Source: Strigamia acuminata (taxonomy: Eukaryota). From it: a stretch of 64,000 nt of DNA. The stretch spans positions 20,026,001 to 20,090,000 of the forward strand of contig OX442314.1 in the NCBI GenBank assembly GCA_949358305.1, read 5' to 3'. The position numbers and the translations under genes were made by a program. The notes beneath the pieces were generated by a model. The model made no database searches. It was not told the DNA's origin and was given only the letters and a program-made list of their open reading frames with translations. Of this stretch, positions 9,001 to 63,519 are shown in pieces (position 1 is the stretch's first letter; the number at the start of each line of letters is the position of its first letter).

Positions 9001-9814
9001 ATCAATCGTGAGTTCATGTTTTCCGCCCGAACTTCTTTTTTTACGATACCAAAACGTATCATAATACTCTAGATAAGTATCTGTCATTAGAGACCACCGC
9101 ACAACATTTCTCAGCTGACGAAAAAAATCACAATAAGTATAATTGACTCTGTTAGAACTGTTTGATTATTGAGTTACGTATAATCCATCAGCAACAGTGT
9201 TTGTTCGGCCAGAAACTACATTAGCAATCGCTATTGTTGGTTCTAGTCGAAATCCCCCAGTCGCTGAATATCTAATAACACCAGTTAAGCCTTCAAATGC
9301 TAACTAATTATCAAAACACAAATAATTACAACGGTAAACAAACTACGGTTACAATCAGTCGATACTTACTTCAGCAAATCCTTGGACTACAGTGGGTTTA
9401 GAGAAAATTTCATTGTTGCTTAGCAATTTTTCAAACGAGTAAGCAAATGTTAGTACAGCATCGTAACCTAATGCAAATTTATCAGCAACCTGATCAGAAA
9501 TATATCATGTTTTCATTACGTAAATCAATAATTGCAATAATTCAATTATTTACATTTGAACTGTCAGTAGTTGGTATGCCATAAGAATCCACGTGATTGA
9601 TTCCAAAATATTTACGATTTACATGATACCACAGATCAGTGGAAAACCCAGATAAATTATAAGCTTTATAAACCATGTGCATTCCGTGAAAGGCTTCTAA
9701 GCATGTTGGTTTCTGTTTAACCGAAATAACATACTTCTCAAATTTACATTTCTGTAATCTACAGTCTACACTATGCTCGAAATAGAATATTCCATGAACT
9801 GGAACACCACTTCA

Positions 9815-9845
<31 letters not shown>

Positions 9846-15800: not shown

Positions 15801-18800
15801 CATGACATATGACATCAGAACTTTGTTCAACAACATGACTGTCTTCATGAAGACAATAATAGTTTGTAGTGGTGGTTCAGTGGTTAAGGCAATGGACCAG
15901 GAATCTTTCCACACAGGTTCAAATCCTGTTGGGTGTGAATATATTTACATTTATTTTTTGTTAAATTTTAGCAGTTATTTTAATGTTTGTAATTTTATAT
16001 TTGTTTCCAGAAAATTTTAATTTGGTTAATTTTAATTTTTTAACAAATATAAAATTACAAACATTAAAATAACTGCTAAAATTTAACAAAAAATAAATGT
16101 AAATATATTCACACCACTACAAACTATTATTGTCTTCATGAAGACAGTCATGTTGTTGAACAAAGTTCTGATGTCATATGTCATGTGATATCAAAAGAGG
16201 AAATGACATCATTGAATCTCAAATGGTAAAATTGAACTTGGATCTTGGAACTATTTTTTACCTAGCAACTGTTGTTTACAGTATTCATACACTAGGCCTG
16301 ATTGCTCAGATTTGATGTATACACAGACAAAATAGTGCCAACTTTCAGCTCATTGTTTGCATTGTTGGCTGTTCATGGAATGAAATTATTTTAGGGTCTC
16401 ATTCAGCATGATATAACAATCCTTCTTGTTTAATATTACAACAATCTGTGATAGCTTATTGGTGCTCTCCCCTTGTAAGATGAAGTCATTTCTTAAAGGA
16501 TTTCCAATCAATCCAGAAATTCGAAAACAATGCATTAATTGAGGTCGGACATCTTGGATCCAGCCAGATCGAAGAAGTGGATCCTGGTCAAATAAACTTC
16601 AGAACTGACTTCGTCATGCTACCACGCATTGCTTTTTTTTTATTACGGGCTTTCAGAAAATGTAAAAATCCTACTCAGTGCACTTGAACTTTAACACACT
16701 CTAGTCCGGACATGTGGCCTTTGTACAGACCAGAGAATGTACGCTCCACGGATTGGACATTCCCTGGACCGGACAAGTTTCTGAGACGGTCTCAGAAACT
16801 TGTCCGGTCTCAGTGAGACCCATCTTATGTCCGGACCGCACAGAGTACACTGTATATATTTTAAAAAAATTACTTGTAATTGAATATAAATTGGAAAGTG
16901 GGGATTCCAAAACTTTTCCTGCTGCATCAAATGCCCTAAATCCAAATTGGACTCCATCTACAATATCAACAACGGCACCCAAGAAACTTCCAATTCCTCT
17001 GAAAGTTTTGAAAGTGCTGCCATTCAGAGACAAATTAACACTAGGTTCCGTAAAGACTTGAATATTCTAAACAAACAAAAAAAAACTTAAAATAAAACCA
17101 AAACGAGTACACTATCCGAACCGGCAGAAAATCATGCTTACCAAAGCTGAATCCGGACCTGAAAATACTCGACGTTTGTCAGCATCGAGAACCATTACCC
17201 AAAGTCCAGGTACTTGAACGTGGGCAGGAACACGAAATGATCCAGGCGATGTTATTTCGCTGTCAAAAACATTTAAATCAACGATCTGCAGTTCAGTGGC
17301 AGTCTGCGCTGCAATTGTTAAAAGAAAATTTAAAAAAAAGATTTCTGATTGAAACTTCCATTCATTTATCTTGCACAACCTGTCGTCTTTAAGCGAGTAA
17401 AAATTGCTGACTCCGATTTGTCTCGTGCTTCACACACAGGAGTCTGGTTATACAATTTGTATGTAGATGATGGTACAAATGCCCCTTGATCTTGTTTACA
17501 ATCTTTTAAATACTCACAAAATGCAGATTGAGAATATACATTTTGCATTTCATAAAATGTAACACATGAATGACTCAAATCGGAATATTCCAACGGCTGT
17601 CTGTCTCCAGTTCGAGGAACAAGCAAAGTCGCATTTAGAAATAAAAACTGATAGCGATACACGTCCCGAATAGCCACATCCTTAAATTCGACAAATCCAT
17701 CTGTCGCTCTTTTATGCAGAACTTGATCGTAATTGCGGAACGACGTTATGACTTCATCACCTGCTAATTCAGCATCCGTATTGTACAAAAAGTCGTGGAC
17801 AAGCCCTCCTTGCATAAACGTTTTAGCTTGGTAACCAACAGTCACCTCGACTATCAAACTCGAGTCAAGTCCCGTCGTTATTCGGTTCTTGTTTTGATCG
17901 ACTATTTCCAAAGAAAACGTAAACAGTTGATTTGCAAACATTTCATCTTGAGGCTTCTGATGCCAATTTAATTTTGCAATTCCTTTAAATCAAATTTAAG
18001 CCATTAGTTGAATTGTATTTCTAGACATAAAAATCTATAATTTACGATTATAAATTTTAATTGGATTAGTAAGAACCGACAATGTTTTTCCATTCACGAA
18101 AACAGAAAATCCAATTTGACGAAGTAAACAATATTGAGTTCCAGATGCTCCATCCGTAATACTGTGAACTAGCCCTTGTGCGATGAGGTAGTTTCCATGA
18201 ATTGGCACAAACGGGATTACGAGCTTATTTTCCTGATAAACTTCAAAACTACACTTGCTTCTACAAAATAAAAAGCATTGCTTCTAAGTGAATTAAACTA
18301 TTATGGAATGATTTTCCAATTTACTGTACCGAAAATGCTCCTCAGAGAATCGTCTGGGGTCACCTAATTCATAATCACTCGCGGCTAATTGGCAGACTTT
18401 AATTAAGCTATCAGGTATTGATGAATTGCAACCACTAGACTCCGAAACGTTAACTGTAAGAATAAAGCCATTCTTTTTTAAGAAACACGACTACATCGTG
18501 ACATCGTTCATTAAGTACTGGCTGGTTGGGATGATATGTTAAAATATTTTGGTCGTAATTGATACGGAATATCCTGTGGTCGTAATAGATTTCCATTTGT
18601 TGTTGTGCATAAATATGCCACAATTGGTCGACTTATTCTTTGATTATTTGACACAGAATAAATATCATCATCGGCATTCGGTTTTATTTCTGCTGGAAAG
18701 TAGTTTTTAAAAGGGCCATTTTTCGGAAAACAAATCCCAATATCATCTAAATTTTTGTAAATTATGATGTAGAATTTTATTCGACCAATTAATTTATTAC

Positions 18801-19506: not shown

Positions 19507-20903
19507 ATGGTTCAACCGTTATTTAAGTTCGTTGTAATTGTGTTTATCGCAAATTATTTCGTAAGGAATAATCATTCACAAAATATAATTGCGTAATTTC
19601 ATTTATAATCTATTTATATTTCAATGCAGTGCACATCTGAAACTCAAGCTGATCTCCGGAATCAAGGAGGTAAAATTCTCATCAATTATTTCTTACAAAA
19701 CTAAAGCTCGTCTGTTAACACAAACACCTAAAGTTCGCGCCTGGTATTTTGATGCCAAACTCAAACTGCGCATCACATTCTGTGTATGTATTTTACGTGG
19801 CAATTGCTGCACACAAACACTGGCGCAACCAGGGGGGGGGGAGGGTGGCTATGGGGCCATGGTCACCCCAAAGAGATCATAAAAATTTATTAAAAACGTT
19901 TAATGTTTATGGTACAAAATTCAAAAATTTTCCTGGGTTAGGGGGCGTGCTGAAACCAATGCCCCCCTCTGAAATCTGAACATTTTCTAGATCCGCCTCT
20001 GCACACAAAGGAAATAAAACAACAAAGTTTTATGTTAATGAGTTTATTGTTATTTATTTACTTTATATTAGCATTAGTAGACCTAATATTACGCTTAATA
20101 CTGCTAAATAACAACAGGAAATCATCTGCGCTGAATGGAATGCGCAGTATGAATTTGGCATCAAGATATCCAGCACGAACTGTAGGCTTCAAACACTCAT
20201 TTACAGGATCGGAATAAAAAAAAACTTTTTACTCTGTTTTCCTAATATTTTTATACTAACAAGCAAAAAAATAAAAAAGTTGTTTACGAGCATTTTACAC
20301 CTATCTAACATACTTGCAATGCAAAAAAGTTGCACTTCACCTAACATTTTGGGGGATTTTTAAAAGACAAAACTAACAAAATATGTACATTAATTAAAAG
20401 GCAGTAAACAAGAAATAGTTGCGGCACAGAATGTACAGACTGGAGGCAAAGATTCAGCACAAGCAGAACAAACCGGATCAAAGAAGGTGAAACGTGAAAC
20501 CAAAAAAGAAATGAAACAGAAAGAAGAAAAAAAGAAAATTCAAAGTATGGGAGGCGGTTTTAATGATTATCCACCTATGTTTGCTGTCCCTGACGCTGCT
20601 GCAGCAACTACAGTTGACCCCTTAGCTGCCCGAGAACTAAGTGCTCCTCGCAAAGTTAACGCTGATTCACATAAGGTTCGTAAACATGTCTCTGAAGAAA
20701 GTTCATCAGTTAGTGACTCTTCCAGTGAACAACTGTCTTCTGAGGAGAGCTACTTTCGAGAAGACCTTGCCAGATATCTCTATAAAATTCAACTCCTAAA
20801 TAAATATCGCGCAGCATACCAAGCACAAAATCCAAAAATTGAATATTTTTTTGATTTTCATCAAGTAATTGTACCAGAACAACCAGACTATTATTCGAGG
20901 TAA
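19507..20903 (+). CDS. Secreted family member 0 (divergent, lacks the Gly/Asn cassette)
   Basis: Exons 19507-19560 (MVQPLFKFVVIVFIANYF), 19630-19669 and 20401-20899 splice in phase. Ser-rich block; C-terminus EDLARYLY...EYFFDFHQVIVP is homologous to the other copies. A phase-2 donor at 20900 matches the paralogues, so the true end may lie after 20984. Confidence 0.7.
19818..20001. mobile_element. hAT-type MITE in intron 2 of member 0
   Basis: CA...TG ends; 8-bp TSD cacacaaa. Confidence 0.7.
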
Positions 20904-23186: not shown

Positions 23187-24310
23187 ATGTTGAAAAACAT
23201 CCCAATTTCAATTTTCTTGGTCGTTTGGATGGTTACACTGACAAAAGTAATTATTGTTACCAAATTTTTTCAATATCTTTTTCAAATTCTTTTTCTTTAC
23301 ATACATTTAATTTTTTTTTACAGAGTCAAGACGAAGTTGACGGAAACGGATTGGGAAAAGGTGAGAAAAACTAAAAAAAATTATTTACATATGATAATTT
23401 ATATTATTCCTTTAAGCCTACGGTGGAACGGCTAGTGATGAAATACAAGCACCCCATCATCGCAAACCCCGTCATGGTAGCCGTCATAGGTCGAAAAATA
23501 GGAGACACCAAGACGAGGGATATGTTATGGCAAACGCAAATGATCAACGCCAACAAGGCGACAGACGAGCCGCACAAGACCAACAAGGCAACAGACGAAC
23601 AGCACAATACGAACGGGCCAACAGACGACGGCAACGCCAGCAAGGGAACAAACAACTGGAAACTTCAGGAGGAGGATTCAATGCAAATATAAACCAAAAT
23701 AATGAATTTTCACCGACTATTGGAAATATGGGAGAGATTGGAAGTATTGGCGGAAGGGCAGCTAGTCAACTGGAGAGTTCGGGAGGAGGCTTCAATGCAA
23801 ATATAAATCAAAATAATAATTTTTCACCTACTTTTGGAAATATTGGGGATATTGGAAGTATTGGCGGAAGAGCTGCTAATCAACTGGAGAGTTCGGGAGG
23901 AGGCTTCAATGCAAATATAAATCAAGATAATAATTTTTCACCTAATTTTGGAAATATGGGAGCAATTGGAAGTATTGGCGGAAGAGCTGCACCAAGAGAT
24001 AGCACGACTTCGAAAATAGAAAGTTATTTAGATAATCTTTCCGAGGATGACATTGCTAAGTTCTTGTATTATGGCATTACAACATTGATAAGACATGCTG
24101 ACCAAAAACACAAAGGTTCAACACAACCACACAAACCTGATTATTTCTTTGATTTCCGTCAAATTTATCTGCCTACCGACCGCAGGTATCACCGTCATAT
24201 TTTCACTGTATAAATGCTGTGATTGAATACAATTTTTTTTCTTCTTTTTACTTTTAAAACTTTTCAGTGATAGTTCTTCATCAGAATCAGATTCCGGCAG
24301 TGATGAGTGA
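23187..24310 (+). CDS. Secreted repeat precursor, member 1 (3 Gly/Asn cassettes)
   Basis: Exons 23187-23246 (MLKNIPISIFLVVWMVTLTK), 23324-23360, 23417-24185 and 24268-24310 (SDSSSSESDSGSDE*); all GT-AG and in phase. Confidence 0.88.
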
Positions 24311-26673: not shown

Positions 26674-28100
26674 ATGTGTAAAAAAATACCAATTTCAATT
26701 TTCTTGATCGTTTGGATGGTCTCATTGACACTGGTAATGATAATGATTGACAACAGCATTGTTCAAATTTTTTTTTAAAATTCTTTTCTGTGCTTAAATT
26801 TAATTCCTTTTACAGGTGGGGCAAGCCCACGGTGATGATGGTGAGATAGAGCCACCCCAAGCTCATCAACACCATCATGTGGGGCAAGAAAGCAGTTCCT
26901 CAAGCAGTTCCTCAAGCGAGGAACACCATAATCCAAACGCACAACCACAACACCAACAAGGCAACAGACAACCTCAACACCAACAAGGTAACAGACAACC
27001 TCAACACCAACAAGGCAACAGACAACCTCAACACCAACAAGGCAACAGACAACCTCAACACCAACAAGGCAACAGACACCCGCATGGCCAACGAGGCGGC
27101 AACAAACAATTGGATAGTTCAGGAGGAGGATTCAATGCAAATATAAATCAAAATAATGAATTTTCACCTAATTTTGGAAATATGGGAGCAATTGGAAGTA
27201 TTGGGGGGAGAGCAGCAACGCAAGGTTCTGGATTCAATACAGAAGGCGGTGGTAATATGAAAGGAAGAGCAGCTAGTCAACTGGACAGTTCAGGAGGAGG
27301 CTTCAATGCAAATATAAATCAAGATAATAATTTTTCACCTACTTTTGGAAATATGGGAGCAATTGGAAGTATTGGGGGGAGAGCAGCAACGCAAGGTTCT
27401 GGATTCAATACAGAAGGCGGTGGTAATATGAAAGGAAGAGCAGCTAGTCAACTGGACAGTTCAGGAGGAGGCTTCAATGCAAATATAAATCAAAATAATG
27501 AATTTTCACCTAATTTTGGAAATATGGGAGCAATTGGAAGTATTGGCGGAAGGGCAGCTACTCAACTGGAGAGTTCGGGAGGAGGCTTCAATGCAAATAT
27601 AAATCAAAATAATAATTTTTCACCTACTTTTGGAAATATAGGAGACATTGGAAGTATTGGCGGAAGGGCAGCTAGTCAACTGGAGAGTTCGGGAGGAGGC
27701 TTCAATGCAAATATAAATCAAAATAATAATTTTTCACCTAATTTTGGAAATATGGGAGAAATTGGAAGTATTGGCGGAAGAGCTTTTGATGGGAAAGCTT
27801 CGAAAATAGGAAGTTATTTAGAAAACCTTTCCGAAGATGACATCGCTAAGTTCTTGTATTATGGCATAACATCTTTGGTAAATCATGCTAACTCAAAACA
27901 CAAAGTTTCGAAGCACCCACAAAAACCTGAATACTTTTTTGACTTTCGAAAAATTTATTTGCCTACCGACCGCAGGTATCACTATCATATTTTCACTGTA
28001 TAAATGCTGTGATTGAATTTAATTTTTTTTCTTCTTTTTACTTTTAAAACTTTTCAGTGATAGTTCTTCATCGGAATCAGGTTCCAGCAGTGATGAGTAA
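26674..28100 (+). CDS. Secreted repeat precursor, member 2 (5 long + 2 short cassettes)
   Basis: Exons 26674-26733 (MCKKIPISIFLIVWMVSLTL), 26816-27975 and 28058-28100. Contains a His block, SSSSSSSSSEE and about 5 HQQGNRQPQ repeats. Confidence 0.88.
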
Positions 28101-30024: not shown

Positions 30025-30931
30025 ATGCTTAAAACGATGCAAATTTCAATTTTCTTGTTTGTTTTTATGATCACATTGACAAAAGTAATGAGTAATGATT
30101 GCTACCAAATTTTTTCAATATCTTTCTCAACATTCTTTTTCTTTGCACATTTCTTTTTTACAGAGTCAACAAAACACACCTGATGAACAACAACCTGGTG
30201 TGATAAAAAAACCTCACTTAGATGAGAAAAACTAAAAAAATTGTTTGTCCATTCTAATTTTTAATATTATTTTTAGGCAACGATCAAACGGGTGGTCGCG
30301 AGAGACAACCATTTGGTGTTGGAACCAACAGAAAACCATTTGGTGTTGGAACCAGACAAGAAGGCGACGGACAAGAAGGCGACGGACAAGAAGGCAACGG
30401 ACAAGAAGGCGACAGTCAACCGCAATATCAACAAAACAGCCGACAACCGCAACAAGGACAAAGGCAAAAAGACAACAGAAAACCACGAGGCCAACGAGGC
30501 GGCAACAAACAACTGGATACTACAGGAGGAGGATTTAATGCAAATATAAATCAAGATAATAATTTTTCACCTAATTTTGGAAATATGGGATCTATTGGAA
30601 GTATTGGCGGAAGAGCTCTTGGAGCAAGTGGGAAAGCTTCGAAAATAGGAACTTATTTAGATAACCTTTCCGAAGATGACATTGCGAAGTTCTTGTACTA
30701 CGGCATTAAATATTTAATAAATAATGCTAATCAAAAACACAAAGGTTCGACACAGGCACATAAACCAGAATACTTTTTCGATTTTCGTCAAATTTATATG
30801 CCTACTGACAGCAGGTACGACTATCATGTTTTCACTGTACAAAAATGTTGTAATTGAATTGAAATTTTTAAAAAAACTTTTCGCTTTAATAATTTTTCAA
30901 TAGCTCTTCAAGCGAAAGTTCAGCTGAATAA
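30025..30931 (+). CDS. Secreted repeat precursor, member 3 (1 cassette)
   Basis: Exons 30025-30084, 30164-30197 (assumed alternative donor), 30277-30814 and 30904-30931 (SSSSESSAE*); QEGDG repeats; YFFDF domain. Confidence 0.75.
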
Positions 30932-31601: not shown

Positions 31602-34254
31602 AGTTAGATTATATTTGATATACAATGAGTATGTGTAATGAATGGTTACAATTGTAGTTCCCATGAATAAGACAAATTGTAACAGAGAACAATAAAATAC
31701 AAAGAGGTGTAGATTCACCTTTGTTATGTTTCGATGAATGAAAGTGATGTGTGTGTGAATTTCTCTCAATTCTAAATTGCCCCAACATGGGTTATGGGCC
31801 CCAGTCACGGTGGGAAGTCAAGATAATGACAGAAAAATTTACGAATTAATTCGTGTGCTGATTCAAGTTTTTTTTTTCGACTTTAAAACGAATGTTGACG
31901 TTCGGAAATGGCGGCCAAGTTGGAACAGTCGGCCACATACGTGGAAAAATTGAATGGCAAGAACTATCCATCATGGGAATACCGCGTGCGTATTTTGCTT
32001 CGAGCGAAAGATGTCTGGACGTCTGTAAAGACGATTTCCCGGTCAAAGCGTTGGGCGAGAGCGACGTGGATTTCAAGGCAAGACAAGACGTATGGAATAC
32101 TAAGGATATTGAGGCACTGAATTTGATCCTCCAGACCATCGACTCGGCACAACTTATGTTGGAAATGAATGAGAGGAGATGGCATTGATTGTTGCTGATA
32201 TACTCGTTTATTCAGCGCGCACGTTATTGCAACGATCTGCACGTTCCCGCAACGTCACCGGAAGTCACGTGATGGGTCAGTGGTACAGTCATAATACACA
32301 TAACTCCCCCTGGCGGTGGGAGACCCTTACACGGGATTTGGAATACACTGGGCCAGGTGACACAAAATATCAACAACTTAGACATGTATTAAATAAGGAT
32401 ACGGCCAAGGAGGCCTGGATGGCTTTGAAAATCTAAAATCAAAGCAATTTAGCAGAACTAAAAGTGCAGAAGAGAGTCGAATTGGGGCACACGATGATGA
32501 AGCAAGGCTGGCCGTGCCTGGCATAAAACATTGGAGGCAGAACTGTTGAAAGTTGGTTTTTTCAAGCATCCGAGTGAACAATGTGTTTATGTTTACATGA
32601 GTGGAAAATCAACCATAATTATGGCAACATATGTTGATGATTTGTTGACTTTGGACAACAATAGTGAATTATTAGACCAATTAATGGCAAGGATACGACT
32701 CCGGATAAAGGTGATAGATTTGGGCGAGATAAAGAGCTTATTGGGCATACAAATAAAGCAGGATCAGAAGAAAAATCAAATCACCTTAGATCAATCCAAA
32801 TATATTTTTCAGTTAGCGTCCAAATTTGTTTTGGACCAAGCAAGGGGCCGCTGTACTGGGCGCGACATAGCCAGGCGCGACTGTCGCGCTTCGAAATGTG
32901 AAAGGATTTCGAAGCGCGACAAGAAAGTACACGTTATTTCAAAACGCAACAAAAATTTTTTTTTGAATGCAGCTAACGTGTATTCATAAGGGAAAATGCT
33001 TTGGATCAGAATGCTGTGACCAACTGGCAGCCGCCAGTTGACTTCCCGTCTTCGATGTGACAATTCGTGTCACGTTGTCCGAACGTGACGCAACACATTC
33101 GCTGGTGTCGCGCCACGCTATTCTAACGTGTCGCGCCACGCTATTCCTAGGTGTCGCAAACTGCAGCTTGTCGCGCCAAGCTATTGACAACAATGTTGCG
33201 CCCATTGCTAAGCGCGAATCGCAATGTCGCGCCTAGCTATGTCGCGCTCTGTACGCATCACCCAAGCAAGGACGGTAAAAGTTCCGATGGAAGTTTCACA
33301 AAAATTGGACGCCCCGAATTATCCATTGGGACCATCAGCGACAGACAAGCCTTACAGAGAACTCATAGGCGCGTTACTCTACCTTGCACAGGGTACGCAC
33401 CCTGATATTGCATTCCCAGTCTCATTCCTCTCCCAGTGTTTAAACGATCCAAAACAGGCCCACTGGATTGCTGCGAAGAGAATTTTGAGATATTTAATTG
33501 CGACTGTAAATTATCGCTTGAGGTACGTGGGTACCAGTGGAGACTTAACAGGATATACGGATTCATCTTGGAATTCCTGTAATGCAGGTGCAAAATCATT
33601 TGCGGAATTTATCACGACATTTAACAGGACGGCCATTACGTGGCAGGCAAAGAAACAAAGCCTAATCAGCTTATCATCATGTGAAGCTGAATTTTCAGGC
33701 CTGGTTGAAGTAGCAAAAAAAATAAAATGGGTCAAGAATGTATTCGAAGACTTAAAGTTGACTGAAGGAAAGCAACCCATAATTATTTATTGCGATAATC
33801 AACCGGCAATTGACTTGACGAAAAATCCTTGTTACCACGCCAGAACCAAACACTTTAACAGAAGAGTATCTTTTATTAGACAAGATGTTAATGAAGGAGT
33901 TTACAAAGTAAATTATTTACCAACGAATGCGATGCTCGCGGATATGATGACAAAAGCCGTCTCTGAAACGAAATTGAAGCAAGCATGCGAAGGAATAGGA
34001 TTAGTGGATTTTTCAAATGAAAACAAATTGTAAATCTCATATACATATATTAAGTATTTAATATGGGCAGTGTTAGATTATATTTGATATACAATGAGTA
34101 TGTGTAATGAATGGTTACAATTGTAGTAACCATGAATAAGACAAATTGTAACAGAACAATAAAAGACAAAGAGGTATAGATTCACCTTTGTTATGTTTCG
34201 ATGAATGAAAGTGATGTGTGGGTGAATTTCTCTCAATTCTAAATTGCCCAAACA
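31602..34254 (+). mobile_element. Decayed, internally deleted Ty1/copia element (copia-2)
   Basis: Diverged LTRs at 31602-31787 and 34071-34254; TSD ggcaa/ggcga; PBS ggttatgggccccagt; gag start (VEKLNGKNYPSW), RT YVDD fragment and RNase H (YTDSSW, CDNQPA); protease and integrase missing. Confidence 0.9.
32846..33262. mobile_element. MULE-like MITE inserted in copia-2 RT
   Basis: TIRs gtactgggcgcgacatagccaggcgcgac / gtcgcgcctagctatgtcgcgctctgtac; 9-bp TSD caagcaagg duplicates RT residues QAR. Confidence 0.85.
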
Positions 34255-35344: not shown

Positions 35345-38300
35345 TGTTGGGGTAATTGCGCATGCTCAATCCAATAATATAGTGCACGTCGCGTGCCGTT
35401 GTTTCTTTTCACACTTTGTATTATTCTTGCCGAGTAAAAGGTTGTTTCTGTTTTCTCCTCTTCAAACTGACTTTTTATTCTACGAAATATAACAAATTGG
35501 TAGCAGAGGATTGGTTTTGCCGAAAAAGCATCTACCCTCGCTTGATAAACGGTTTTTTCGAGAGAATTAAGAACGTTGCTGAGACGAAACGGATTGGGAG
35601 GCAAGGCTTATTTTTGGGACTCGTAATTCGAACGTCGTCGCAATTCGAACATATTCTGATGGCGGACACAATTGCTGGTGGGTCGCTAAATAGAATCGAC
35701 CAGTTAAACGTGGACAACTATTTTGTTTGGCAATATAAGCTCGAAGCACTTTTGTCCGCGAAAGGGCTAAGTGGCGCACTTACTGAACAAGAACCGGAAA
35801 AACCGGGAGATCCAGCAGATGCGGATTACGACGCCAAAGAGAAGGCGTACGAGAAATGGGCCAAACAAAATAGCGAGGCACTTGGAATTATTGTGCTTAC
35901 TATTTCTGAGCAACAAGCGGTTTGCTGCCTCGGCGAAAAGCACGCAAAAGCTGTTTGGGAAATCTTGAAGAAACGGCACGCGGGTACGACAGTACGAAAG
36001 CGCATCGATGCAGGTATCGAGTTGGGAAAGCTGCGGATGCGCGCGGAGGAAAGTCTTGACGGCTATCTAAATCGGGCCTTAGCAACACAGGCCAAAGCCA
36101 AGGCTGTAGGACGAGACACTCCGGATCAGGAAGTCGTTCTGTACGCGTCGTTGGGGCTAAACGCCAAATTCATCCATATAGCGCGGGATTTTCGTTCGAG
36201 ACCGGATGCGACGTTTGACGAATTCCGTAGTTCTTTGCTCCTCGAAGAGCAGTTGAGCTCATCAACCCAGGGGACTTCGGCGGTGACGACAGCAGCTTTC
36301 AAAGCAGTCGTCGGGAAGAACTCTGGCGGGAGAAAGTCACGGACTGAAGGTAAAGCGGCTTGTTATGAATGCGGAAAGGCAGGCCACATTGCAAAAAATT
36401 GCTGGGCGCGTTATCCGGAAAAACGACCAAAAACCCAAGCCAAGGAGACGGCAAAAGTCGCGCAGACGCAAGCTCCGCATCATGCTTACGTCGCAGATTC
36501 GTCGCCAGGAGGCGCTGACAAAAAGCCCAAACATCACGCTTTTGTTGTCGTTTTTGGCGACAATGCGAGCCGTTCGGGATGGGTGCTCGACTCGGGTGCA
36601 TCAACGCACATGACCTGTCGACGCGACTGGTTCGTAACGTTCGAAGAGGACGAAACGATTGTCACGACGGCAAAACAGGGCGTGGAGCTCGTAGCCAAGG
36701 GAAGAGGCACCGTCGTTGTCAAATGTCGGAAATCACAATCTGAATGGACGGAAATATCATTGCTCGATGCTCTGTACGTCCCCGACCTGAAAGGCAATCT
36801 TTTATCGGTTTTCAAAATGACTGCGCGACAGTACAAGGTATTTTTTGAGAAGGATGTCGCCAACGTCGTTGACCCAACTGGCGAGACCATTGCGCAAGGT
36901 ACCAAAAGTGGGAACTTGTTCTTGATGGAGACGCAGCACGAAAATGCGTGCCTGGCGGACGACGTGAGCGGCGCAGATCAGCCAGTCGCTGAAGCTGGAC
37001 ACGTGAGCGAGAAAGAGTTGTGGCACGGACGTTTGTGCCATGTCGGCCAAAGAACTCTTGTCAAGATGCGCGACCAAGAAGTGGTACATGGGCTGAAGTT
37101 TAAAGATGAACAACTGCCAACGTGCTCTTCGTGCGTGCAGGGCAAGATGACCAAGACCCCCTTCAAACGCATAAAAGGAAAGCAGTCCCAGAAAACTCTG
37201 GAACTCGTCCACGCTGATCTTGTGGGGCCTTTCCAAGTTCCTTCTCTGTCGGGCAGCAGATTCGCAATGATTCTTACGGACGATTTTTCGAGAATGAAAT
37301 TTTCGTATTTTTTGAAAGAGAAATCTCAGAGCTTCACCTTCTTTAAGGCTTTCAAAGCCCTCAATGAGCGACAGACTGGACACGAGTTACGTCGCCTACG
37401 GACGGATAACGGCGGAGAGTTTGTCAACAACGAATTCCGTGGTTTTTGCGAAGAGCAGGGCATCAAACACGAGTTGACGGTCCCGTACAACGCCTCTAGC
37501 AATGGAATCGCGGAACGCAGCAACCGGACACTCATCGAGTCTACGAGATCACTACTGCTGGAATCCAAACTGCCATTACGTTTTTGGGCCGAGGCGCTTG
37601 CGACAGTCGTACACGTCAAAAATCGAGTAATGACCAAACCGAATGGAAACGTGGTCCCAGCGGAAATATGGTCGCAGCGCAAGCCAACGGTGGCATACCT
37701 TCGTATTTTTGGATGCAAGGCATGGGCACACGTTCCTGCGCAACAAAGGCGCAAACTTGACAGCAAAGCAAGACAAGGAATTTTCGTTGGATACGCCACT
37801 GACCGCAAGGCTTATCGAGTTTTTGATCCAGAGACTGACGACATAGTCGAAGCAAGATCCGTAGTATTTGATGAATTCACGCGCGGAGCCGATTTTTTCC
37901 GCCTCAAACGAAGTGATTTTGACGATCAACGTTTTTGCGCAAGACACGAGGCAGAGATATTCATGGACGAACCAACTTTTGAAAAGCAAGTTGATCCTGC
38001 AAATGCAAATGCGCGCGACGTTGCAAATGCGCGCGACGTTGCAAATGCGCGCGACGCAGATGTCCCTGCGCACGACGAAGAACCAGAGCCAAACCGTCCT
38101 GTTGGTCGACCAAGGGGCGCGACGGCTGAAGCGACAAACTTGCGCCACGAGTTGGAGATGCGGGAACGGGAACAGCACCTGGTTGAGACGGGCGTACGAC
38201 GCTCACAGCGCCTAATGGACCAGCGTGAAGCTGCGAATCTTGCCACGGAGGAGCTGTTCACACCAGAGACCTACGCTGAAGCGATGGGGTGTCCAGACAG

Positions 38301-42291: not shown

Positions 42292-43392
42292 ATGTTCACA
42301 TACCTCCAAATAGCAATTTTTTCAGTTATTTTGATGGTCACATTGACAAAGGTAATGCGTGTTACCAATTGCTTTTAATATCTGTTTCTATACTGTATAT
42401 ATTTCTTTGCATAAATTTAATTTTTTTTACAGAGTCAATACATACCAGAAAGAAATAAAAAACATCAGCATGACACAACAAAAGCTGTCTTAGATGTTAA
42501 TTTGGATTTAATTGATGAAAAAGGATCGAAAATAGGTTAAAAAAACTAAAAAATTGTTTACCATTCAAAATTATAATATTATTTTAGGCTATGATGGAAC
42601 GGCTGGTGCCGACATAGAACCACCCCAACGTCGTAAACACCATCATAATCACCGTCAAAAGTCCAAAAAAAGTAAGTACTCAGATGAGGAAGATAAGGTT
42701 GCAAAGGGTCAAAATCAATACCAACAAGGCAACAGACAACCGCAAAGCCAACAAGGCAACAGCCAACAAGGCAACAGCCAACAAGGCAACAGCCAACAAG
42801 GCAACAGCCAACCGCAAAGCCAACAAGGCAACAGACAACCACAAAGCCAACAAGGCAACAATCAACCGCAAAGCCAACAAGGCAACAGACAACCTCAAAG
42901 CCAACAAGGCAAAAGACAACCACAAAACCAAAGTGGTAAGAAACAACTGGGAAGTTCAGGAGGAGGATTCAATGCAAATATAAACCAAAATAATAAATTT
43001 TCACCTACATTTGGAAATATGGGAGATATTGGAAGTATTGGCGGAAGAGCTGCAGGAAGAGATGGAACGAGTTCAAAAATAGAAAGATATTTAGCTAACC
43101 TTTCCGAAGATGACATTGCTAAGTTCTTGTATAATGGCATTTCAACATTGATAAGACATGCTGACCAAAAACACAAAGGTTCAACACAACCACACAAACC
43201 TGATTATTTCTTTGATTTCCGTCAAATTTATATCCCTACCGACAGCAGGTATCATACGATGTTTTCATTGTATTAATGTTGTGACTAAATTGAATTTTTT
43301 ACTTCGTTTAACTTTTTTAACTTTTCAGTGATAGTTCTTCATCAGAATCAGATTCCAACAGTGATGAATCTGTGAATGGCGGAATATGGTAA
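42292..43392 (+). CDS. Secreted repeat precursor, member 4 (1 cassette, long QQGN(S/R)QPQS array)
   Basis: Exons 42292-42351 (MFTYLQIAIFSVILMVTLTK), 42433-42535, 42588-43248 and 43329-43392. Confidence 0.85.
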
Positions 43393-46310: not shown

Positions 46311-47771
46311 ATGTTTAAAAAGATTCCTACTGCAATTTTCTTGGTCGTTTTTATTGTCACATTGACAAAAGTAATGAGTAATAATACTGCACAATTGTAT
46401 TGAATTTTTTTTAAATTATTTATCTTCGTATAAATTTAATTTACAGAGTCAAAACATAGGTGGTAAAAGTCCTGATGACGACAAAAACGTAAAACCTCGA
46501 AGAGGAGGGGAAGGCTTTGACTCCACCATACAAGCGCGTGGGCAAAGTAAGTAAAACTTAAAAATTGTTAACCAATTTCTGCCAATTCTAAAATATTTCA
46601 AACCGCTTTGACATCACTGTATTTGGACGAAGTAAATAAAACTTATTTTTTTGCCAATTCTAATTTAAAATAATATTTTAGGCCAAGAAAAACGTCAACA
46701 TCGACATCACCCACACCATCATGATAATCATCATCACTCCAAAAAAAGAAATTATCCTGACAGAGTGGACGTTCAAAATCAACAAGAAAAAGACAGTAAA
46801 CAACTTGAAAGTACAGCGGGGGGTTTCAGTGCAAACATAAATCAAACCAATAATTTCTCACCCACTTTTGGGAATATAGGAGATATTGGAAGTATTGGTG
46901 GAAGAGAAATGTCGTCACAACTGATAATTTCAAGAAATGGATCGAGTATAGATTTAACTCAACGTAATACATTCTCACGCACGTTTGGAAATATTGCAGC
47001 GGTTGGAAATATTGGTCTCGGTGCGAAAGAAGTCAACAACACACAACTGCAAAGTTCAAATGGAGGGTCCAATACAAATATAAATCAAAACAATGTATTT
47101 TCACCCACGTTTGGGAATATCGGAAACATTGGAAACATTGGAAGTATTGGTCCTGTGGAGAAAGAAGTCAAGAAGAAATTGTAAAGTTCAGGAGGAGGAT
47201 TCAATACAAATATAAATCAAAATAATTTTTTTTACACAAGTTTGGAAATATTTGAGATATTGAAAGTATTGGTATCGGTGCGCGAGAAGTCAACAGACAA
47301 TTGGAAAGTTCAGGGGATGATTCAATACAATTTTAAATCAAAATATTGAATTTTCACCTAGCTTTGGAAATGTTGGCGATATTGGGAGTATGGGTGGGAG
47401 CAGGGGCGGATCTAGCTTTTCGGGGCCCCTTTATCACAATTTTTAATACCTTGCCTTGTTTCTTGGGCCCCCCCTAAAATTTGGGGGCCTTGGGCTCAAG
47501 CCCCATTAGCCCTATGCTAAATCCGCCGCTGGGTGGGAGACAGATGAACGGACGCCTGCAAAGTTCAGGATTCAATACTGATGAGTGATGACGTTGATGT
47601 GAGAGAACGTATAATAGGAAAAACGCTGGATTGAAAAACTACGCGATTTATACAAATTATTTCCTGAAATCTGAATTGAAATTTTTCTTCCCGGAAAATT
47701 CGGCACAGGCACACAAAACTGAATACGGTACTTTTTGATTTTCATAAAATTCACATCCCTAAAGGCCACAG
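46311..47771 (+). pseudogene. Member 5, truncated or pseudogenised
   Basis: Exons 46311-46370, 46447-46546 and 46682 onward are open until TAA at 47182-47184 (position of E in QLESS). After that come frameshifted cassettes, a MITE and an eroded YFFDF domain. Confidence 0.8.
47401..47531. mobile_element. hAT-type MITE inside member 5
   Basis: caggggcggatctag...ctaaatccgccgctg; 8-bp TSD ggtgggag. Confidence 0.85.
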
Positions 47772-50047
47772 GTTGCACTTGTTTATACATATCACTAGCT
47801 GCATTCAAAAATTAAAATACTTGTGTTTTAACAATTTTAGTTTAAGTGTATTTTAAGTTTAAATTTTGAGTGTGAGAATTTTAACTCTATTTTATAAAAT
47901 TGACAACATGTGAAAGCTTTAACATACATCTTTGATCACCTGATATGTAATAAATTCCAAAATGTAGCATATAATACTCTCCAAGTGATTAGAAAGTAGT
48001 ATGCATTGTTGGAATGCTATTATTTTTAGTAAGATTTAAAATTTTTATGCCTTGCTACCGGTAGTAGAAGGGAGGAAGAAATTTTAAAAGAGTATGACCA
48101 ACTGCCACCAGAGGTCATTGACAGCATCAATTCAAAGATGGAGTGATTGGACAAGAAAGAAGAAAGAATTAATAAAGCATCTAAGTAATATTTATTATCA
48201 ATCTTAGTTAGAAAAATACCAAAATTTATGGTTTGAATAAGAATGGTAAAAAATTAAAAAAACAATTTAAAAACAATGTTCACATGTGAGTTACCTATTT
48301 TCATGAAAATTCTTCAGAAATTAAAATTCAAAATTTTTGTATTTATGTTTTAAGAGTGTGTAGCACAAAAATTTAAAATATAACAGGAAGTGATGTGATA
48401 AGTTGTGAAGTGATGTCATATAACTACAGATAAAATTTTAATTTGTGAGTGCTTGAATTTTAACTGAATTTTGCTTCAATTTTCATAAAACTTTGTATAC
48501 AAATGTAATGCATAACTACACTTCAAATTGAAGTAAAATAGAGTTTAGTGAAATTGTATTTTAGTTTGTATTTTAACCAATTTTAGTTTTATAGACAGGA
48601 AATGATGTCATTTTTGTTTTAAAATGGAACTAAAACACAAAATATTTTAATTTTTGAATGCAGCTAGTGTGTCGTTTTTAGCCTGTTATAAAGTTTACAT
48701 ACCTTGGTTTTCGTCCGCTATTCCTGTTTCGTCGTCGTTTACCTGCTTCTTGCACATTAGCAGTTTTCGGGACGCCATTTTGTTGAGGCGCGGCTCTGCT
48801 GCTTTCGAGGCTGACGAGGTTCTGAGAAGTTTTCAGGCCTTATCGCAAGTGGTTGTTATTTATTACTAAGTTATGTTTTTAGCAATCGATTAATTTCTAT
48901 AGTTTGTATCTTTTACTTCTGTTTGTTTTCGTTAGCAATTCCGAAGTGACGGCGGTGCTACCCGCCCATTGGCTGAATGTGTTCGCGTTTATTAGTTTAT
49001 GTTCTTTTGAATATTTGTGACTCGAAATTAATTAAACTCGGTATGATTTAACTGTATTTGCCACTTTGATGATATTTACGACAGTAGTCGTCCTGCTGCT
49101 TACTTTTAAGTTGGTTTTTGACGCTGTTCTGTTAGACTTAAGCTATTGCTTGTTATTTGGAGTTACGGTATTTCTGCTGGACCGTTTTTATTTGCGCTCC
49201 GCATTTGTGCCTTCACACGGCTTTCTTAGTATTTAACACCTGCCTTTTTACAATGGAGTTGTTACCTGTTTAATTCACCTGCTATTCTTCTGCAAGTGGC
49301 AGTTTCACTGTGTGTTTTGTTGAGTTAGTTGTTGTATTTTTTTCGTTGGAATTAAACTATGTTTTTATTGCTCTTAAATTACATGCCAGATTATTTACAA
49401 ACCAACATGTGTGAGTAGAGCAAGCAAGCTCCTCCCTTTGGATCACGGATTACAGGCACATGTGATATTCTGTATTGTGTAGATACGCCACTAGATGGCG
49501 GAATATGTACGGCGACACCTGGTGCACGGTGTTGCCTATTATAACACCTGATTAAAGCGGCACTTTATGTTAGTGCATCACACGACACACTTCGTCCTTC
49601 TTTATTGGAACTCGCTACACGACAGCACACAGAAGGTTTTCCCTCACAATTCAGTAGCGAATCCAAGATATTTAACGTCCTCAGATTTCAAGGCTTTCTT
49701 CGATCAGTCTGCTCTCATTTTCTTTCGCGTCAGTGTCCTTGGTGCTGTAAAGAAACACCGCTGTCATATTATGATTGTTTGAGTTGTCAAAAACTTTGCA
49801 TTTTAGTTCAACTTTAACCCAACAACAAAATTCTATCATAAATTAATTTTTACAGTCTGCAGTCTCATTAAAAGCGATAGAAACCGTAATTCCACAAGAT
49901 CGCTTTAGACAATATGTAACTGTAGGGATAGATTGGATATACGAGCGCTTGAACAAATGGAACGCAATATAAATAGACACAACGCAAGATTAACCACCTA
50001 GGCGGATTCTAACAATAAATATTTGTGACGGAATAAAACCGTAACTG

Positions 50048-51748: not shown

Positions 51749-53645
51749 ATGTTAACAAATATCCCTATTTCAATTTTCTCGGTCATTTTTATTGTCACAT
51801 TGACAAATGTAATGAATGATTATACTACAAAATTTCAATAGATTTTTCAAATTCTGTACCTTTGCATGAATTAATTTTTTTTACAGAGTCAATTCGTACC
51901 AGCCATCCCTTATGTACCGGGTAACAGCCTTGGTGTTGCGAACATGGTTAACCCTGCGCAAAGTAAGTAAAACTTGAATATTGTTTACAATTCTAACTTG
52001 CAATATTATTTTAGTGGGACAAGTGGGACAACTCATACCAGGTAGCAGCCTTGGTGTTGCGAACATGGTTAACCCTGCGCAAAGTAAGTAAAACTTGAAT
52101 ATTGTTTACAATTCTAACTTGCAATATTATTTTAGTGGGACAAGTGGGACAACTCGTACCAGGTAGCAGCCTTGGTGTTGCGAACATGGTTAACCCTGCG
52201 CAAAGTAAGTAAAACTTGAATATTGTTTACAATTCTAACTTGCAATATTATTTTAGTGGGACAAATGGGACAAATGGGACAAATGGGACAACTCGGAAAA
52301 CTCGGAAAACTCGTACCACGTCGTCATCATCATCATCATCACCACTCCTCCGAAGAAGACAATAATCCTGACAATGGTCCGGACGCCCAAAAATCTAACC
52401 AAAGAGGCAACAAACAACTGGAAAGTTCAGGGGGAGGTTTCAATGCAAACATAAATCAAAACAATGCTTTTTCACCTACTTTTGGAAATATGGGAGCAAT
52501 TGGAAGTATTGGGGGGAGAGCAGCGACTGGTTCTGGATTCAATACAGACGGCGGTGGTACTATTAAAGGAAGAGCAGCCAACCAACTGGAAAGTTCAGGT
52601 GGAGGATTCAATACGAATATAAATCAAAATAATCAATTTTCACCTAATTTTGGAAATGTTGGGGATATTGGCGCCATTGGTGGAAGAGCAGCCACGAAAC
52701 AACTGGAAAGTTCAGGTGGAGGATTCAATACAAACATAAATCAAAATAATCAATTTTCACCTAATTTTGGAAATGTTGGGGATATTGGAGCCATTGGTGG
52801 AAGAGCAGCAACGCAAGGTTCTGGATTCAATACAGAAGGCGGTGGTAATATGAAAGGAAGAGCAGCCAAACAACTGGAAAGTACAGGAGGAGGATTCAAT
52901 GCAAATATAAATCAAAATAATGATTTTTCACCCACTTTCGGAAACATTGGAAACATTGGAGCCATTGGTGCAAGATCAGCCACCAAACAACTGGAGAGTA
53001 CAGGAGGAGGATTCAATACAAATATAAATCAAAATAATGAATTTTCACCCAATTTCGGAAACGTTGGAAACATTGGAGCCATTGGTGCAAGAGCAGCAAC
53101 GCAAGGTTCTGGATTCAATACAGAAGGCGCTGGTAAAATTAAAGGAAGAGCAGCCAACCAACTGGAAAGTTCAGGCGGAGGATTCAATACAAATATAAAT
53201 CAAAATAACGAATTTTCGCCAAATTTCGGAAATGTTGGCAATATTGGAGCCATTGGTGGGAGAGCAGCCTCGCGTGGTTCTGGATTCAATACAGACGGTA
53301 TTAAACCGAAAGAACTTGCAGCAGAAAGGGCAGAAACATACTGGGGTGCAAAACTGCGCAATTTATTAGACGGCTTCACTGAACAAGAGATTACCTATTA
53401 TGCAAATTATTTTCTGAAATCTGTCTTGAAGTTTTTCTTCCCTGGAAATTCAGCACAGGCACCGGCACACAACGCTGAATACTTTTTTGATTTCCGTAAA
53501 ATTCATATACCTAAAGGTCACAGGTAATTACTATCATATCCCTCTGATGTCAATATATTGTGATTGAGTTTGAATTGTTGTTTTTTTACTCTACAATTTC
53601 GCTAGGCATTCACAAGAATCAGCTGACAGTAGTGCTAGCGTGTAA
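51749..53645 (+). CDS. Secreted repeat precursor, member 6 (6 long + 3 short cassettes, 2 extra duplicated exons)
   Basis: Exons 51749-51808, 51887-51962, 52015-52083, 52136-52204, 52257-53523 and 53606-53645 (HSQESADSSASV*); His7 tract. Confidence 0.85.
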
Positions 53646-61388: not shown

Positions 61389-63519
61389 ATGTTGAAAAAC
61401 ATTCCTATTTCGATTTTCTCGGTCATTTGTATTGGCACATTGACAAAAGTAATGAACGGTTATATTACAAAAATTCAATGGAATTTTTCAAATTCTGTAC
61501 CTTTGCATGAATTAATTTTTTTTACAGAGTCAATTCGTACCAGTGAAACAAAGCCCTTTAACACCAGTTAGAGGTAGAAGCCTTGGTGATGGAACCATCG
61601 TTACACCTGAGAATAGTAAGTAAAACTTAAATATTGTTTACAATTCTAACTTGGAATATTATTTTAGTCGACGTAGGAATACCCAAACCACGTTCACTAT
61701 CAGAACATCATAGTCATCATCATCATCACCACTCCAAAAAAGACAGCAATCCTGACAATCCTACGGACGCCCAAAATACTAACCAAAAAGTCAACAAACA
61801 ACTGGAAAGTTCAGGGGGAGGTTTCAATGCAAACATAAATCAAAACAATGCCTTTTCACCTACTTTTGGAAATTTGGGATCTATTGGAACCATTGGTGCG
61901 AGGGAATTCACCGATAAAGTGCGAAGTTCAGTAGCAGGATTAAAAACAAATGTAAATGGACTTCCTGATTTTTCAAGCAAGATTGGAAATATTGGAGACA
62001 TTCAAAGTCTTGGTCTCAATGCGAGAGAAATTACTAAACAACTGGAAAGTTCAGGAGGAGGTTTCAATGCAAACATAAATCAAAACAATGCCTTTTCACC
62101 TACTTTTGGAAATTTGGGATCTATTGGAACCATTGGTGCGAGGGAATTCACCGATAAAGTGCGAAGTTCAGTAGCAGGATTGAAAACAAATGTAAATGGA
62201 CTTCCTGATTTTTCAAGCAAGATTGGAAATATTGGAGACATTCAAAGTCTTGGTCTCAATGCGAGAGAAATTACTAAACAACTGGAAAGTTCAGGCGGAG
62301 GATTCAATACAAATATAAATCAAAATAACGAATTTTCGCCAAATTTCGGAAATGTTGGCAATATTGGAGCCATTGGTGGGAGAGCAGCGCATGGTTCTGG
62401 ATTCAATACAGACGGTATTAAACCGAAAGAACTTGCAGCAGAAACATACTGGGTTGCAAAACTGCGCGATTTATTAGACGGCTTCACTGAACAAGAGATT
62501 ACCTATTATGCAAATTATTTCCTGAAATCTGTCTTGAAGTTTTTCTTCCCTGGAAATTCAGCACAGGCACCGGCACACAACGCTGAATACTTTTTTGATT
62601 TCCGTAAAATTCACATACCGAAAGGTCACAGGTAATTACTACCATATACCTCCCATGTCAATATACAGGGTGGTCAGAAAGTCTGGTTCTCAGTAAATAA
62701 TTCCCAAACTGTTCTAGATGTTGATTCAGCAAAATTATTGTAAGGGTAGTATTTCGGGGGAAATCCAATTATGATATCCAATTTGACCTTTGAGGTCATC
62801 TTCAAGGTCATCCATATTGTAACTCGAGAACCGTGACAGATGGAGCAAAAAAGTGAATTAGAAAGTTACAGAGGCATCATCCAATTAGTCTAGAACCGTT
62901 CTTAAAAAAATTATTTCATACTGAAAAGTTTTGAGAAAAAAGGTCTGAAACATTAGTCTACTCAGCATTGTAACTCAGCTTTGTAACCTAAAACTATTGA
63001 GGCAACCAAGCTAATCCTCAATTAGGACACTTTATTTGGTCATACTTTTAAGTGGAAGAGAGGAAACACAAAAGAAAAGAAATAATTTATTTGGGCAATA
63101 CACTTCAACATGATAGTTTTAGGTTACAAAGCTGAGTAGACTAACGTTTCAGAGCTTTTTTCTCAAAACTTTTCAGTATGAAATAATTTTTTTAAGAACG
63201 GTTCTAGACTAATTGGATGATGCTCTATAACTTTCTAATTCACTTTTTTGCTCCATCTGTCACGGTTCTCAAGTTACAATATGGATGACCTTGAAGATGA
63301 CCTCAGAGGTCAAATTGAATGTCATAATTGGATTTCCCCCGACATACTACCTATACAATAATTTTGCTGAATCAACATCTAGAACAGTTTGGAAATTATT
63401 TACTGAGAACCAGACTTTCTGACCACCCTGTATTGTGATTGAGTTTGATTTATTGTTTTTTACTTTACATTTTTGCTAGGCATTCACAAGAATCAGCTGA
63501 CAGTAGTGCTAGCGTGTAA
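61389..63519 (+). CDS. Secreted repeat precursor, member 7 (3 canonical + 2 divergent cassettes)
   Basis: Exons 61389-61448, 61528-61615, 61668-62631 and 63480-63519; the last intron contains a MITE; C-terminus nearly identical to member 6. Confidence 0.85.
62666..63430. mobile_element. Tc1/mariner-type long-TIR MITE
   Basis: ta|cagggtggtcagaaagtctgg ... ccagactttctgaccaccctg|ta with arms over 300 bp; the empty site atgtcaatatattgtgattgag is present in member 6 at about 53547. Confidence 0.92.

What the first reader, a model, noticed from the sequence alone, without database searches (positions are those of the whole stretch)
27105..27785. Cassettes have a polyprotein grammar: R-A-A-x | Q ... 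G-R, predicting two classes of pyroGlu/amidated peptides
Seen: the long unit QLESSGGGFNANINQNNxFSPxFGNxGxIGSIG (33 aa) and the short unit QGSGFNTEGGGNMK both usually start with Gln after RAAx or xK and end in Gly-Arg, with no internal basic residue in the canonical long unit. Established: N-terminal Gln cyclises to pyroglutamate, and Gly before a basic cleavage site is the PAM amidation signal in neuropeptide, venom and antimicrobial precursors. Inference: each gene releases several near-identical blocked peptides that vary at a few fixed positions. Caveats: sites are monobasic, the AAx spacer needs trimming, and some units end IGAR without the amide-donor Gly.
Basis: partly seen in the sequence, partly recalled or inferred. 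Interest (0 to 1): 0.82.

Follow-up and report, generated by a model that had tools for sequence, protein, structure and literature searches.

The report
Centipede secreted repeat-peptide precursor family
A tandem gene family, likely from a soil centipede, encodes predicted secreted proteins with one to six copies of a conserved 33-residue unit that is likely cut out as end-capped peptides and is predicted, weakly, to stack into fibres; the only relatives found are unnamed proteins of one related centipede.

Summary
27107-27781 holds five 33-aa units and two 14-aa units, each starting with Gln and ending Gly-Arg, inside a three-exon gene with a signal-peptide-like first exon. Eight paralogues lie in tandem. 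The only homologues found are three uncharacterised Strigamia maritima proteins. Their units are 69-80% identical, begin with Gln and end Gly-Arg in 11 of 11, and sit between unalignable basic spacers: the pattern of a peptide precursor. Against: 0 of 19 Arg sites in the six intact genes have a convertase context; three-residue spacers need aminopeptidase trimming; 4 of 20 units lack the amide Gly; the short class is weak (4 of 7 start with Gln, none in S. maritima). One of five AlphaFold models stacks the units as beta rungs, so an uncleaved amyloid-like glue or silk protein is a strong rival. No RNA or peptide evidence was obtainable. Verdict: undescribed lineage-restricted family; cleavage about 65% likely; most likely an exocrine precursor of self-assembling peptides.

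The parts
26674..26733 (+). g26 exon 1: predicted signal peptide (20 codons, phase-0 GT intron)
   Evidence: same exon in 7 paralogues; same N-terminus in S. maritima P0001. Judged by eye, no predictor run
26816..27975 (+). g26 exon 2: His/Ser/Gln-rich leader, repeat array, C-terminal domain
   Evidence: GT-AG introns of 82 nt, 420-aa product, no internal stop, no Cys after the signal
26941..27078 (+). 27-nt (9-aa) Gln-rich tandem repeat, 5.1 copies, each ending G-N-R before Gln
27107..27211 (+). long unit 1 (33 aa + Gly-Arg), follows Lys
27221..27268 (+). short unit 1 (14 aa + Gly-Arg); aligns as a deleted form of the long unit
27278..27382 (+). long unit 2
27392..27439 (+). short unit 2, nucleotide-identical to short unit 1
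27449..27553 (+). long unit 3
27563..27667 (+). long unit 4
27677..27781 (+). long unit 5
27803..27973 (+). conserved C-terminal domain: two predicted helices and an invariant YFFDF motif
   Evidence: 26-27 of 55 residues identical to S. maritima
28058..28100 (+). g26 exon 3: Ser/Asp/Glu-rich tail and stop
20394..20900 (+). g20: distant paralogue exon with the C-terminal domain and one barely recognisable unit; first exon not found
23187..24310 (+). g23: intact paralogue, 4 exons, 3 long units
30025..30931 (+). g30: intact paralogue, 4 exons, 1 long unit
42292..43392 (+). g42: intact paralogue, 4 exons, 1 long unit
46311..47800 (+). g46: broken paralogue (stop, frame changes and an insertion in the array); 1 canonical and several decayed units
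51749..53645 (+). g52: intact paralogue, 6 exons, 6 long units, 4 short units (the last incomplete)
61389..62631 (+). g61: paralogue with 3 canonical and 2 diverged long units; last exon not located

Best explanation
These genes encode predicted secreted precursors that are likely cut after the Arg closing each repeat, releasing 33-residue Gly/Asn-rich peptides that would be capped by pyroglutamate and an amide and that likely act by stacking into cross-beta assemblies in a gland secretion. Steps: (1) signal peptide, repeat array, conserved C-terminal domain and acidic tail: shown by the gene models, secretion predicted. (2) Cut after the single Arg: inferred; the protease is likely not a classical neuronal convertase. 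(3) Carboxypeptidase removes Arg and PAM turns Gly into an amide: inferred, possible for 16 of 20 units. (4) An aminopeptidase removes the 0-4 spacer residues until it meets Gln, which cyclises: inferred by analogy with cnidarian precursors. (5) The freed, neutral-to-acidic peptides stack in register: predicted from one weak model; the charged spacers and the C-terminal domain would keep the precursor soluble. (6) The secretion (sternal-gland glue, spermatophore silk or venom) is a guess; tissue is untested.
For: Boundaries: Gln1 31 of 31 and Gly-Arg 27 of 31 over 20 window and 11 S. maritima units; the search pattern did not contain these positions; the closing Arg (defined as first Arg after the core) falls at position 34-35 in 30 of 31. 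Column identity in S. maritima drops from 100% at Gln1-Leu2 to at most 45% in the ten residues before, and from 100% at Gly-Arg to 55% then at most 36% after; spacers there are 12-56 aa. Unit 24-28 of 35 identical between species, C-terminal domain 26-27 of 55. Lys/Arg 1 of 350 in units against 73 of 283 in spacers. Terminal Arg is kept even in diverged units (g61 twice, g20) that lost the rest. dN/dS about 0.20. Precedent for single-Arg plus Gly C-termini and trimming up to Gln: PMC7523074 passage. Centipede multi-peptide transcripts exist (SLPTX4, 8, 9; PMC4379518 passages). PAM-like and S8 families are scored in S. maritima venom (PMC6878950 supplement). AlphaFold best model gives every long unit the same strand pattern, pLDDT 60-74, pTM 0.59, with short units looped out.
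Against: No transcript, peptide or tissue evidence. C-side Arg has no basic residue at P2-P6 or P8 in 19 of 19 long units of the six intact genes, and only 1 of 11 S. maritima sites is dibasic, whereas the 18 single-Arg amidation sites I counted by eye in S. maritima neuropeptide precursors all have Arg at P4. Only 6 of 19 N-side sites have convertase context and 8 of 19 have no basic residue before Gln. Spider-type Arg-then-Glu motifs fit 6 of 31 (by eye). 4 of 20 units end Ala-Arg. Two diverged g61 units keep the hydrophobic register but start without Gln and carry internal Lys/Arg. A conserved C-terminal domain in all paralogues is not needed by a simple polyprotein. The stacked model appeared in 1 of 5 AlphaFold runs (others pLDDT 29-34) and its Foldseek matches are not significant; the two-unit model had pLDDT about 40 over the units.
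Confidence: 0.42

Rival explanations
1. Uncleaved structural protein: the long units stack within and between chains as a beta-solenoid or functional amyloid (glue, silk or egg/spermatophore coat), with variable loops between rungs and a helical C-terminal domain controlling assembly.
For: model stacks the units with short units as loops; best Foldseek rows are the functional amyloid FapC and beta-helices, though not significant (E 0.06, TM 0.09). Unit is 61% G/N/S/Q. Diverged g61 units keep the register, not the caps. Conserved C-terminal domain under purifying selection. Gln-rich and His-rich leaders. Geophilomorph glue is proteinaceous, with bands of 30-67 kDa in Haplophilus and 12 and 130 kDa in Henia (PMC7766067 passage); the five complete gene models are 24-55 kDa.
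Against: Does not explain why both boundaries coincide with modification signals (Gln, Gly-Arg), why Arg survives in decayed units, or why g30 and g42 have one unit only. Model confidence is low.
Confidence: 0.33
2. Baramicin-like immune or antifungal polyprotein: cleaved peptides act on microbes or their toxins in haemolymph or on the brooded eggs.
For: Same architecture as Baramicin A: one conserved domain plus tandem peptide repeats in a fast-turnover gene family (PMC9246212 passages). No antimicrobial peptides were found in S. maritima by homology (PMC4244043 passage), so its effectors are unknown.
Against: No furin R-x-x-R sites at the C-side; peptides have net charge -2 (long) or 0 (short) in g26, not cationic; no kappaB-like site in 1.5 kb upstream of 7 of 7 genes with a simple pattern; no sequence similarity.
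Confidence: 0.12
3. Neuropeptide, hormone or pheromone precursor whose capped peptides bind a receptor.
For: Pyroglutamate plus amide are typical of such ligands; strict conservation of the unit; a receptor guanylate cyclase gene lies next to the array.
Against: No match to the S. maritima neuropeptide precursors listed in Fig. S20 of PMC4244043 (one entry cut); orcokinin B motif DS(L/I)GGG absent in 31 of 31 units; eight fast-diverging tandem paralogues, no homologue outside one other centipede, and no convertase context are atypical. Adjacency to the cyclase is untested.
Confidence: 0.1

Closest known systems
Strigamia maritima uncharacterised proteins T1IS47, T1IS48, T1IL22 (P0001-P0003)
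   Same: Same signal exon sequence (P0001), same unit (69-80% identity), same C-terminal domain with YFFDF and acidic tail (P0001, P0002).
   Different: Long basic, His- and acid-rich spacers (12-56 aa) instead of 3-4 residues; units often end Lys-Gly-Arg; no short unit; no function assigned.
Cnidarian multi-copy neuropeptide precursors (Antho-RFamide type)
   Same: Gly plus KR, RR or single R at the C-side; no basic residue at the N-side; trimming up to Gln proposed (PMC7523074 passage).
   Different: Those peptides are short neuronal ligands; here 33 aa, Gly/Asn-rich, with a conserved C-terminal domain; no homology.
Centipede multi-peptide venom transcripts (SLPTX4, 8, 9) and spider complex precursors of linear peptides
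   Same: Several linear peptides from one secreted precursor, single-Arg cleavage, carboxypeptidase and PAM steps (PMC4379518, PMC6832493 passages).
   Different: Spider sites are Arg with Glu nearby (PQM/iPQM), met in 6 of 31 here; spider peptides are cationic; venom expression of this family is untested.
Drosophila Baramicin A
   Same: Conserved domain plus tandem peptide repeats, paralogue turnover.
   Different: Furin sites there; no sequence similarity; immune induction untested here.
Functional amyloid FapC (PDB 9u4u) and beta-solenoids
   Same: Imperfect Gly/Asn/Gln-rich repeats, each predicted to form one rung, joined by looped-out linkers.
   Different: Foldseek match not significant (E 0.06, TM 0.09); bacterial, no homology, no amidation signals.

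Membership tests
Multi-copy amidated peptide precursor (polyprotein) | N-terminal signal peptide | tested here: met
   Hydrophobic 20-codon first exon in 7 of 7 genes, by eye; no signal-peptide predictor available
Multi-copy amidated peptide precursor (polyprotein) | Conserved peptide copies separated by variable spacers | tested here: met
Multi-copy amidated peptide precursor (polyprotein) | Gly before a basic residue at the C-terminus | tested here: met
   27 of 31 long units
Multi-copy amidated peptide precursor (polyprotein) | Convertase context (dibasic, or second basic residue at P4/P6/P8; the even-position rule is recalled) | tested here: not met
   C-side 0 of 19 (window, intact genes) and 1 of 11 (S. 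maritima); N-side 6 of 19 and 3 of 11
Multi-copy amidated peptide precursor (polyprotein) | Mature peptides detected in tissue | not testable with these tools
   needs peptidomics
Known S. maritima neuropeptide families | Sequence match to a listed precursor | tested here: not met
   Fig. S20 of PMC4244043 read whole, one entry cut
Orcokinin B | DS(L/I)GGG motif | tested here: not met
   motif from PMC9410093 passage; 0 of 31 units have Leu/Ile at that place
Spider-type complex precursor | iPQM (Arg followed by Glu within three residues) after each peptide | tested here: not met
   6 of 31, counted by eye; definition
Named centipede venom families (incl. GEOTX01, CHILOTX01) | Sequence match to a family found in a venom proteome | tested here: inconclusive
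   No motif match in the held part of the PMC6878950 supplement, but the alignment file is cut and no GEOTX01 sequence was seen
Functional amyloid / beta-solenoid | Repeats stack as parallel beta rungs | tested here: inconclusive
   1 of 5 AlphaFold models, pLDDT 61, pTM 0.59; Foldseek not significant
Functional amyloid / beta-solenoid | Thioflavin T binding, cross-beta diffraction | not testable with these tools
   bench test
Baramicin-like immune polyprotein | Furin sites between peptides | tested here: not met
Baramicin-like immune polyprotein | Immune induction | not testable with these tools
   no RNA holder listed

The most novel reading that the evidence does not exclude
This family is the building block of soil-centipede defensive glue or silk: a soluble precursor is cut into neuropeptide-style capped 33-mers that polymerise at once into cross-beta fibres, i.e. 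a protease-triggered functional amyloid made with hormone-processing machinery.
Probability: 0.2. Interest if true: 0.8.

Novelty: new variant of a known kind. Interest (0 to 1): 0.52.

Why it matters
Multi-copy peptide precursors are a known kind, but this family has no named member, no Pfam or PDB match and a product unlike cationic or disulfide-bonded venom and antimicrobial peptides. Geophilomorph glue proteins are known in the text I read only as gel bands and no antimicrobial peptides were found in S. maritima by homology, so the family gives exact masses and short synthetic targets that make either question directly testable. If the capped peptide polymerises, it is a natural fast-setting peptide material.

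Tried and rejected
Pfam: no family above its cut-off for 8 family ORFs; weak DUF7501 rows carry no passing stretch. HMMER over 1.84 billion representatives: 5 hits, 3 are S. maritima, 2 (P0004, P0005) are low-complexity noise. Alignment search of longer proteins covered only 831-2370 aa and found none, so it is uninformative. PDB sequence search with the unit profile: 0. ESM Atlas: no usable hit for the window protein or P0002. Foldseek of the two-unit plus C-domain model: nothing. The wide structural search was busy at every try and the complex predictor was not available, so self-assembly of free peptides and dimerisation of the C-terminal domain are untested. Expression: no RNA holder listed; runs X1, X2 cover genes and intergenic DNA alike and show no intron-skipping joint among those listed. 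No whole genome is held, so copy number outside the window is unknown. Earlier findings: none by place, sequence or words. Literature: 0 papers hold the three accessions or two 10-residue motifs; searches listed no paper describing the family. Orcokinin B, spider PQM grammar and dipeptidyl-peptidase-only trimming were considered and rejected.

Full report
Observation. The + strand ORF 26804-28003 carries at 27107-27781 five long units (33 aa plus Gly-Arg) and two short units (14 aa plus Gly-Arg), all seven starting with Gln. The first follows Lys, the rest follow R-A-A-S/T. The only basic residues in these 225 positions are the seven closing Arg and the Lys of the two short units. The long units differ by 4-13 nt pairwise; the short ones are identical.

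The gene and its family. The array lies in exon 2 of a three-exon gene (26674-26733, 26816-27975, 28058-28100; GT-AG introns; 420 aa; no Cys after the signal). Seven genes in the window share a 20-codon hydrophobic first exon followed by a phase-0 intron (ATG at 23187, 26674, 30025, 42292, 46311, 51749, 61389), and six share an upstream block with a TATA-like element. Five give complete models of 24-55 kDa without internal stops; g61 is open as far as traced; g46 is broken; g20 is a distant eighth member whose first exon I did not find. Each ends in a conserved domain (two predicted helices, pLDDT 63-79, then YFFDF) and, where located, a Ser/acid tail. Units number 1 to 6 per gene. Pooled pairwise dN/dS is about 0.20 for the 20 canonical units and 0.08-0.53 for C-terminal domain pairs (pairs not independent). 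Variation is concentrated at positions 3, 5, 11, 16, 18, 22, 26, 28, 31, 34.

Relatives. Two searches returned the same three proteins, all uncharacterised Strigamia maritima entries; the other two hits are noise. The neighbouring minus-strand gene also had a single hit, an S. maritima receptor guanylate cyclase at 69%. The window is therefore likely from a related geophilomorph centipede (inference). Pfam, PDB sequences and the ESM Atlas gave nothing usable.

The test that the relatives allow. In S. maritima the 11 units are 24-28 of 35 identical to the window unit, against 26-27 of 55 for the C-terminal domain, and are separated by unalignable spacers of 12-56 aa. Conservation begins at Gln1 (31 of 31 over both species) and ends at Gly-Arg (27 of 31; the other 4 are Ala-Arg in g52 and g61). 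My pattern selected on the core only; the end was defined as the first Arg after it, and that Arg falls at position 34-35 in 30 of 31. Lys/Arg make up 1 of 350 unit residues and 73 of 283 spacer residues in S. maritima. Left out of these counts: two diverged units in g61, up to five decayed ones in broken g46 and one trace in g20. The g61 and g20 ones keep a closing Arg but not the Gly. This is the pattern expected of a precursor whose product is the unit, with cleavage more conserved than amidation.

What does not fit. No long unit in the six intact genes has a second basic residue near the closing Arg (0 of 19), and 1 of 11 in S. maritima is dibasic, 6 of 11 having Lys at P3. By contrast the 18 single-Arg amidation sites that I counted by eye in the FMRFamide, FMRFamide-like, NPF, pyrokinin, RYamide, sNPF and sulfakinin precursors of S. 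maritima all have Arg at P4 (Fig. S20 of PMC4244043; other Gly-Arg pairs not obviously closing a peptide were left out). So a neuronal convertase is unlikely; a gland serine protease is the alternative (inference). On the N-side, 8 of 19 window and 7 of 11 S. maritima units have no basic residue before Gln; the leftover is three residues in the window. A dipeptidyl peptidase would remove Ala-Ala and stop, leaving Ser-, Thr- or Asn-Gln (established specificity, recalled). Pyroglutamate then needs an aminopeptidase that stops at Gln, which is what has been proposed for cnidarian precursors (PMC7523074, passages). The short class is weak: 4 of 7 start with Gln, 5 of 7 end K-G-R, it aligns as a deleted long unit and is absent from the three S. 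maritima proteins.

Structure. AlphaFold on the 225-aa array gave one model of five with pLDDT 61 and pTM 0.59 in which every long unit has the same strand pattern and the short units are low-confidence loops; the other four scored 29-34. Foldseek ranked the functional amyloid FapC and beta-helices first, none significant. A two-unit model was unstructured over the units. The unit is 61% Gly/Asn/Ser/Gln with net charge -2 in g26. This is weak evidence that the unit's job is to stack; it holds whether or not the precursor is cut, and conserved rungs with variable loops also describe uncleaved functional amyloids. The diverged g61 units, which keep the hydrophobic register but not the caps, favour that rival.

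Mechanism and odds. Cleavage at the closing Arg: about 0.65 in all. Best single reading (0.42): exocrine precursor of capped, self-assembling peptides. Uncleaved glue/silk/amyloid protein 0.33; immune polyprotein 0.12; receptor ligand 0.10. Shown: gene structure, repeat grammar, purifying selection, cross-species boundaries. Inferred: secretion, cleavage, both caps, assembly, tissue. No RNA holder was listed.

Literature seen. PMC6878950: passages, section 5 part 1, and parts of a cut supplement; the GEOTX01 sequence lies in the part not held, so identity with that S. maritima venom family is not excluded. PMC4244043: passages and Fig. S20; most other supplements not searched. PMC7523074, PMC6832493, PMC4379518, PMC9410093, PMC7766067, PMC11170834, PMC9246212, PMC7864903: passages only. 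No paper holds the accessions or motifs; the library lacks most subscription journals.

Verdict. Real feature, undescribed lineage-restricted family, a new variant of a known kind of precursor; the long-peptide prediction is reasonable and cheaply testable, the two-class and universal pyroglutamate claims are overstated. Interest 0.52.

Noticed in passing
window 7355-18274, - strand: Multi-exon receptor guanylate cyclase gene (ANF-type ligand domain, kinase-like, cyclase by the Pfam marks of its S. maritima hit T1JDE2), lying head to head about 2 kb from the first member of the array. A peptide receptor type next to a predicted peptide-precursor cluster; may be chance.
   Followed up: partly
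window 26941-27078, 23527-23650, 42721-42940: Gln-rich leader repeats also have basic residues before Gln: G-N-R then Gln in g26, dibasic R-R then an X-Ala dipeptide then Gln in g23, G-K-R and G-K-K then Gln in g42. A possible third class of released peptides with more canonical sites than the main units.
   Followed up: partly
exon 2 of g23, g30, g42, g46, g52, g61: Exon 2 starts Ser-Gln in 6 of 7 genes, so signal cleavage after Ser would also leave an N-terminal Gln.
   Followed up: no
window 51887-52204: g52 has a whole small exon plus intron repeated in tandem (121-nt period, 3 copies), giving a repeated 23-aa leader peptide.
   Followed up: partly
window 27107-27211: The unit's start (Gln-Leu) and its F-S-P-x-F-G stretch loosely recall the S. 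maritima AKH peptide listed; too short to test.
   Followed up: no
window 2675-6610, 32173-34033, 35383-39807; 55115-58120: Copia-type retrotransposon ORFs (two long open ones, one decayed; read by eye) and a THAP/TNP-type transposase interrupt or flank the array.
   Followed up: no
last exons, e.g. window 28058-28100: Ser/Asp/Glu-rich tails and the leader's S-S-E-E run contain S-x-E motifs, the recalled consensus of secretory-pathway kinases; phosphoserine runs are common in adhesives (recalled).
   Followed up: no
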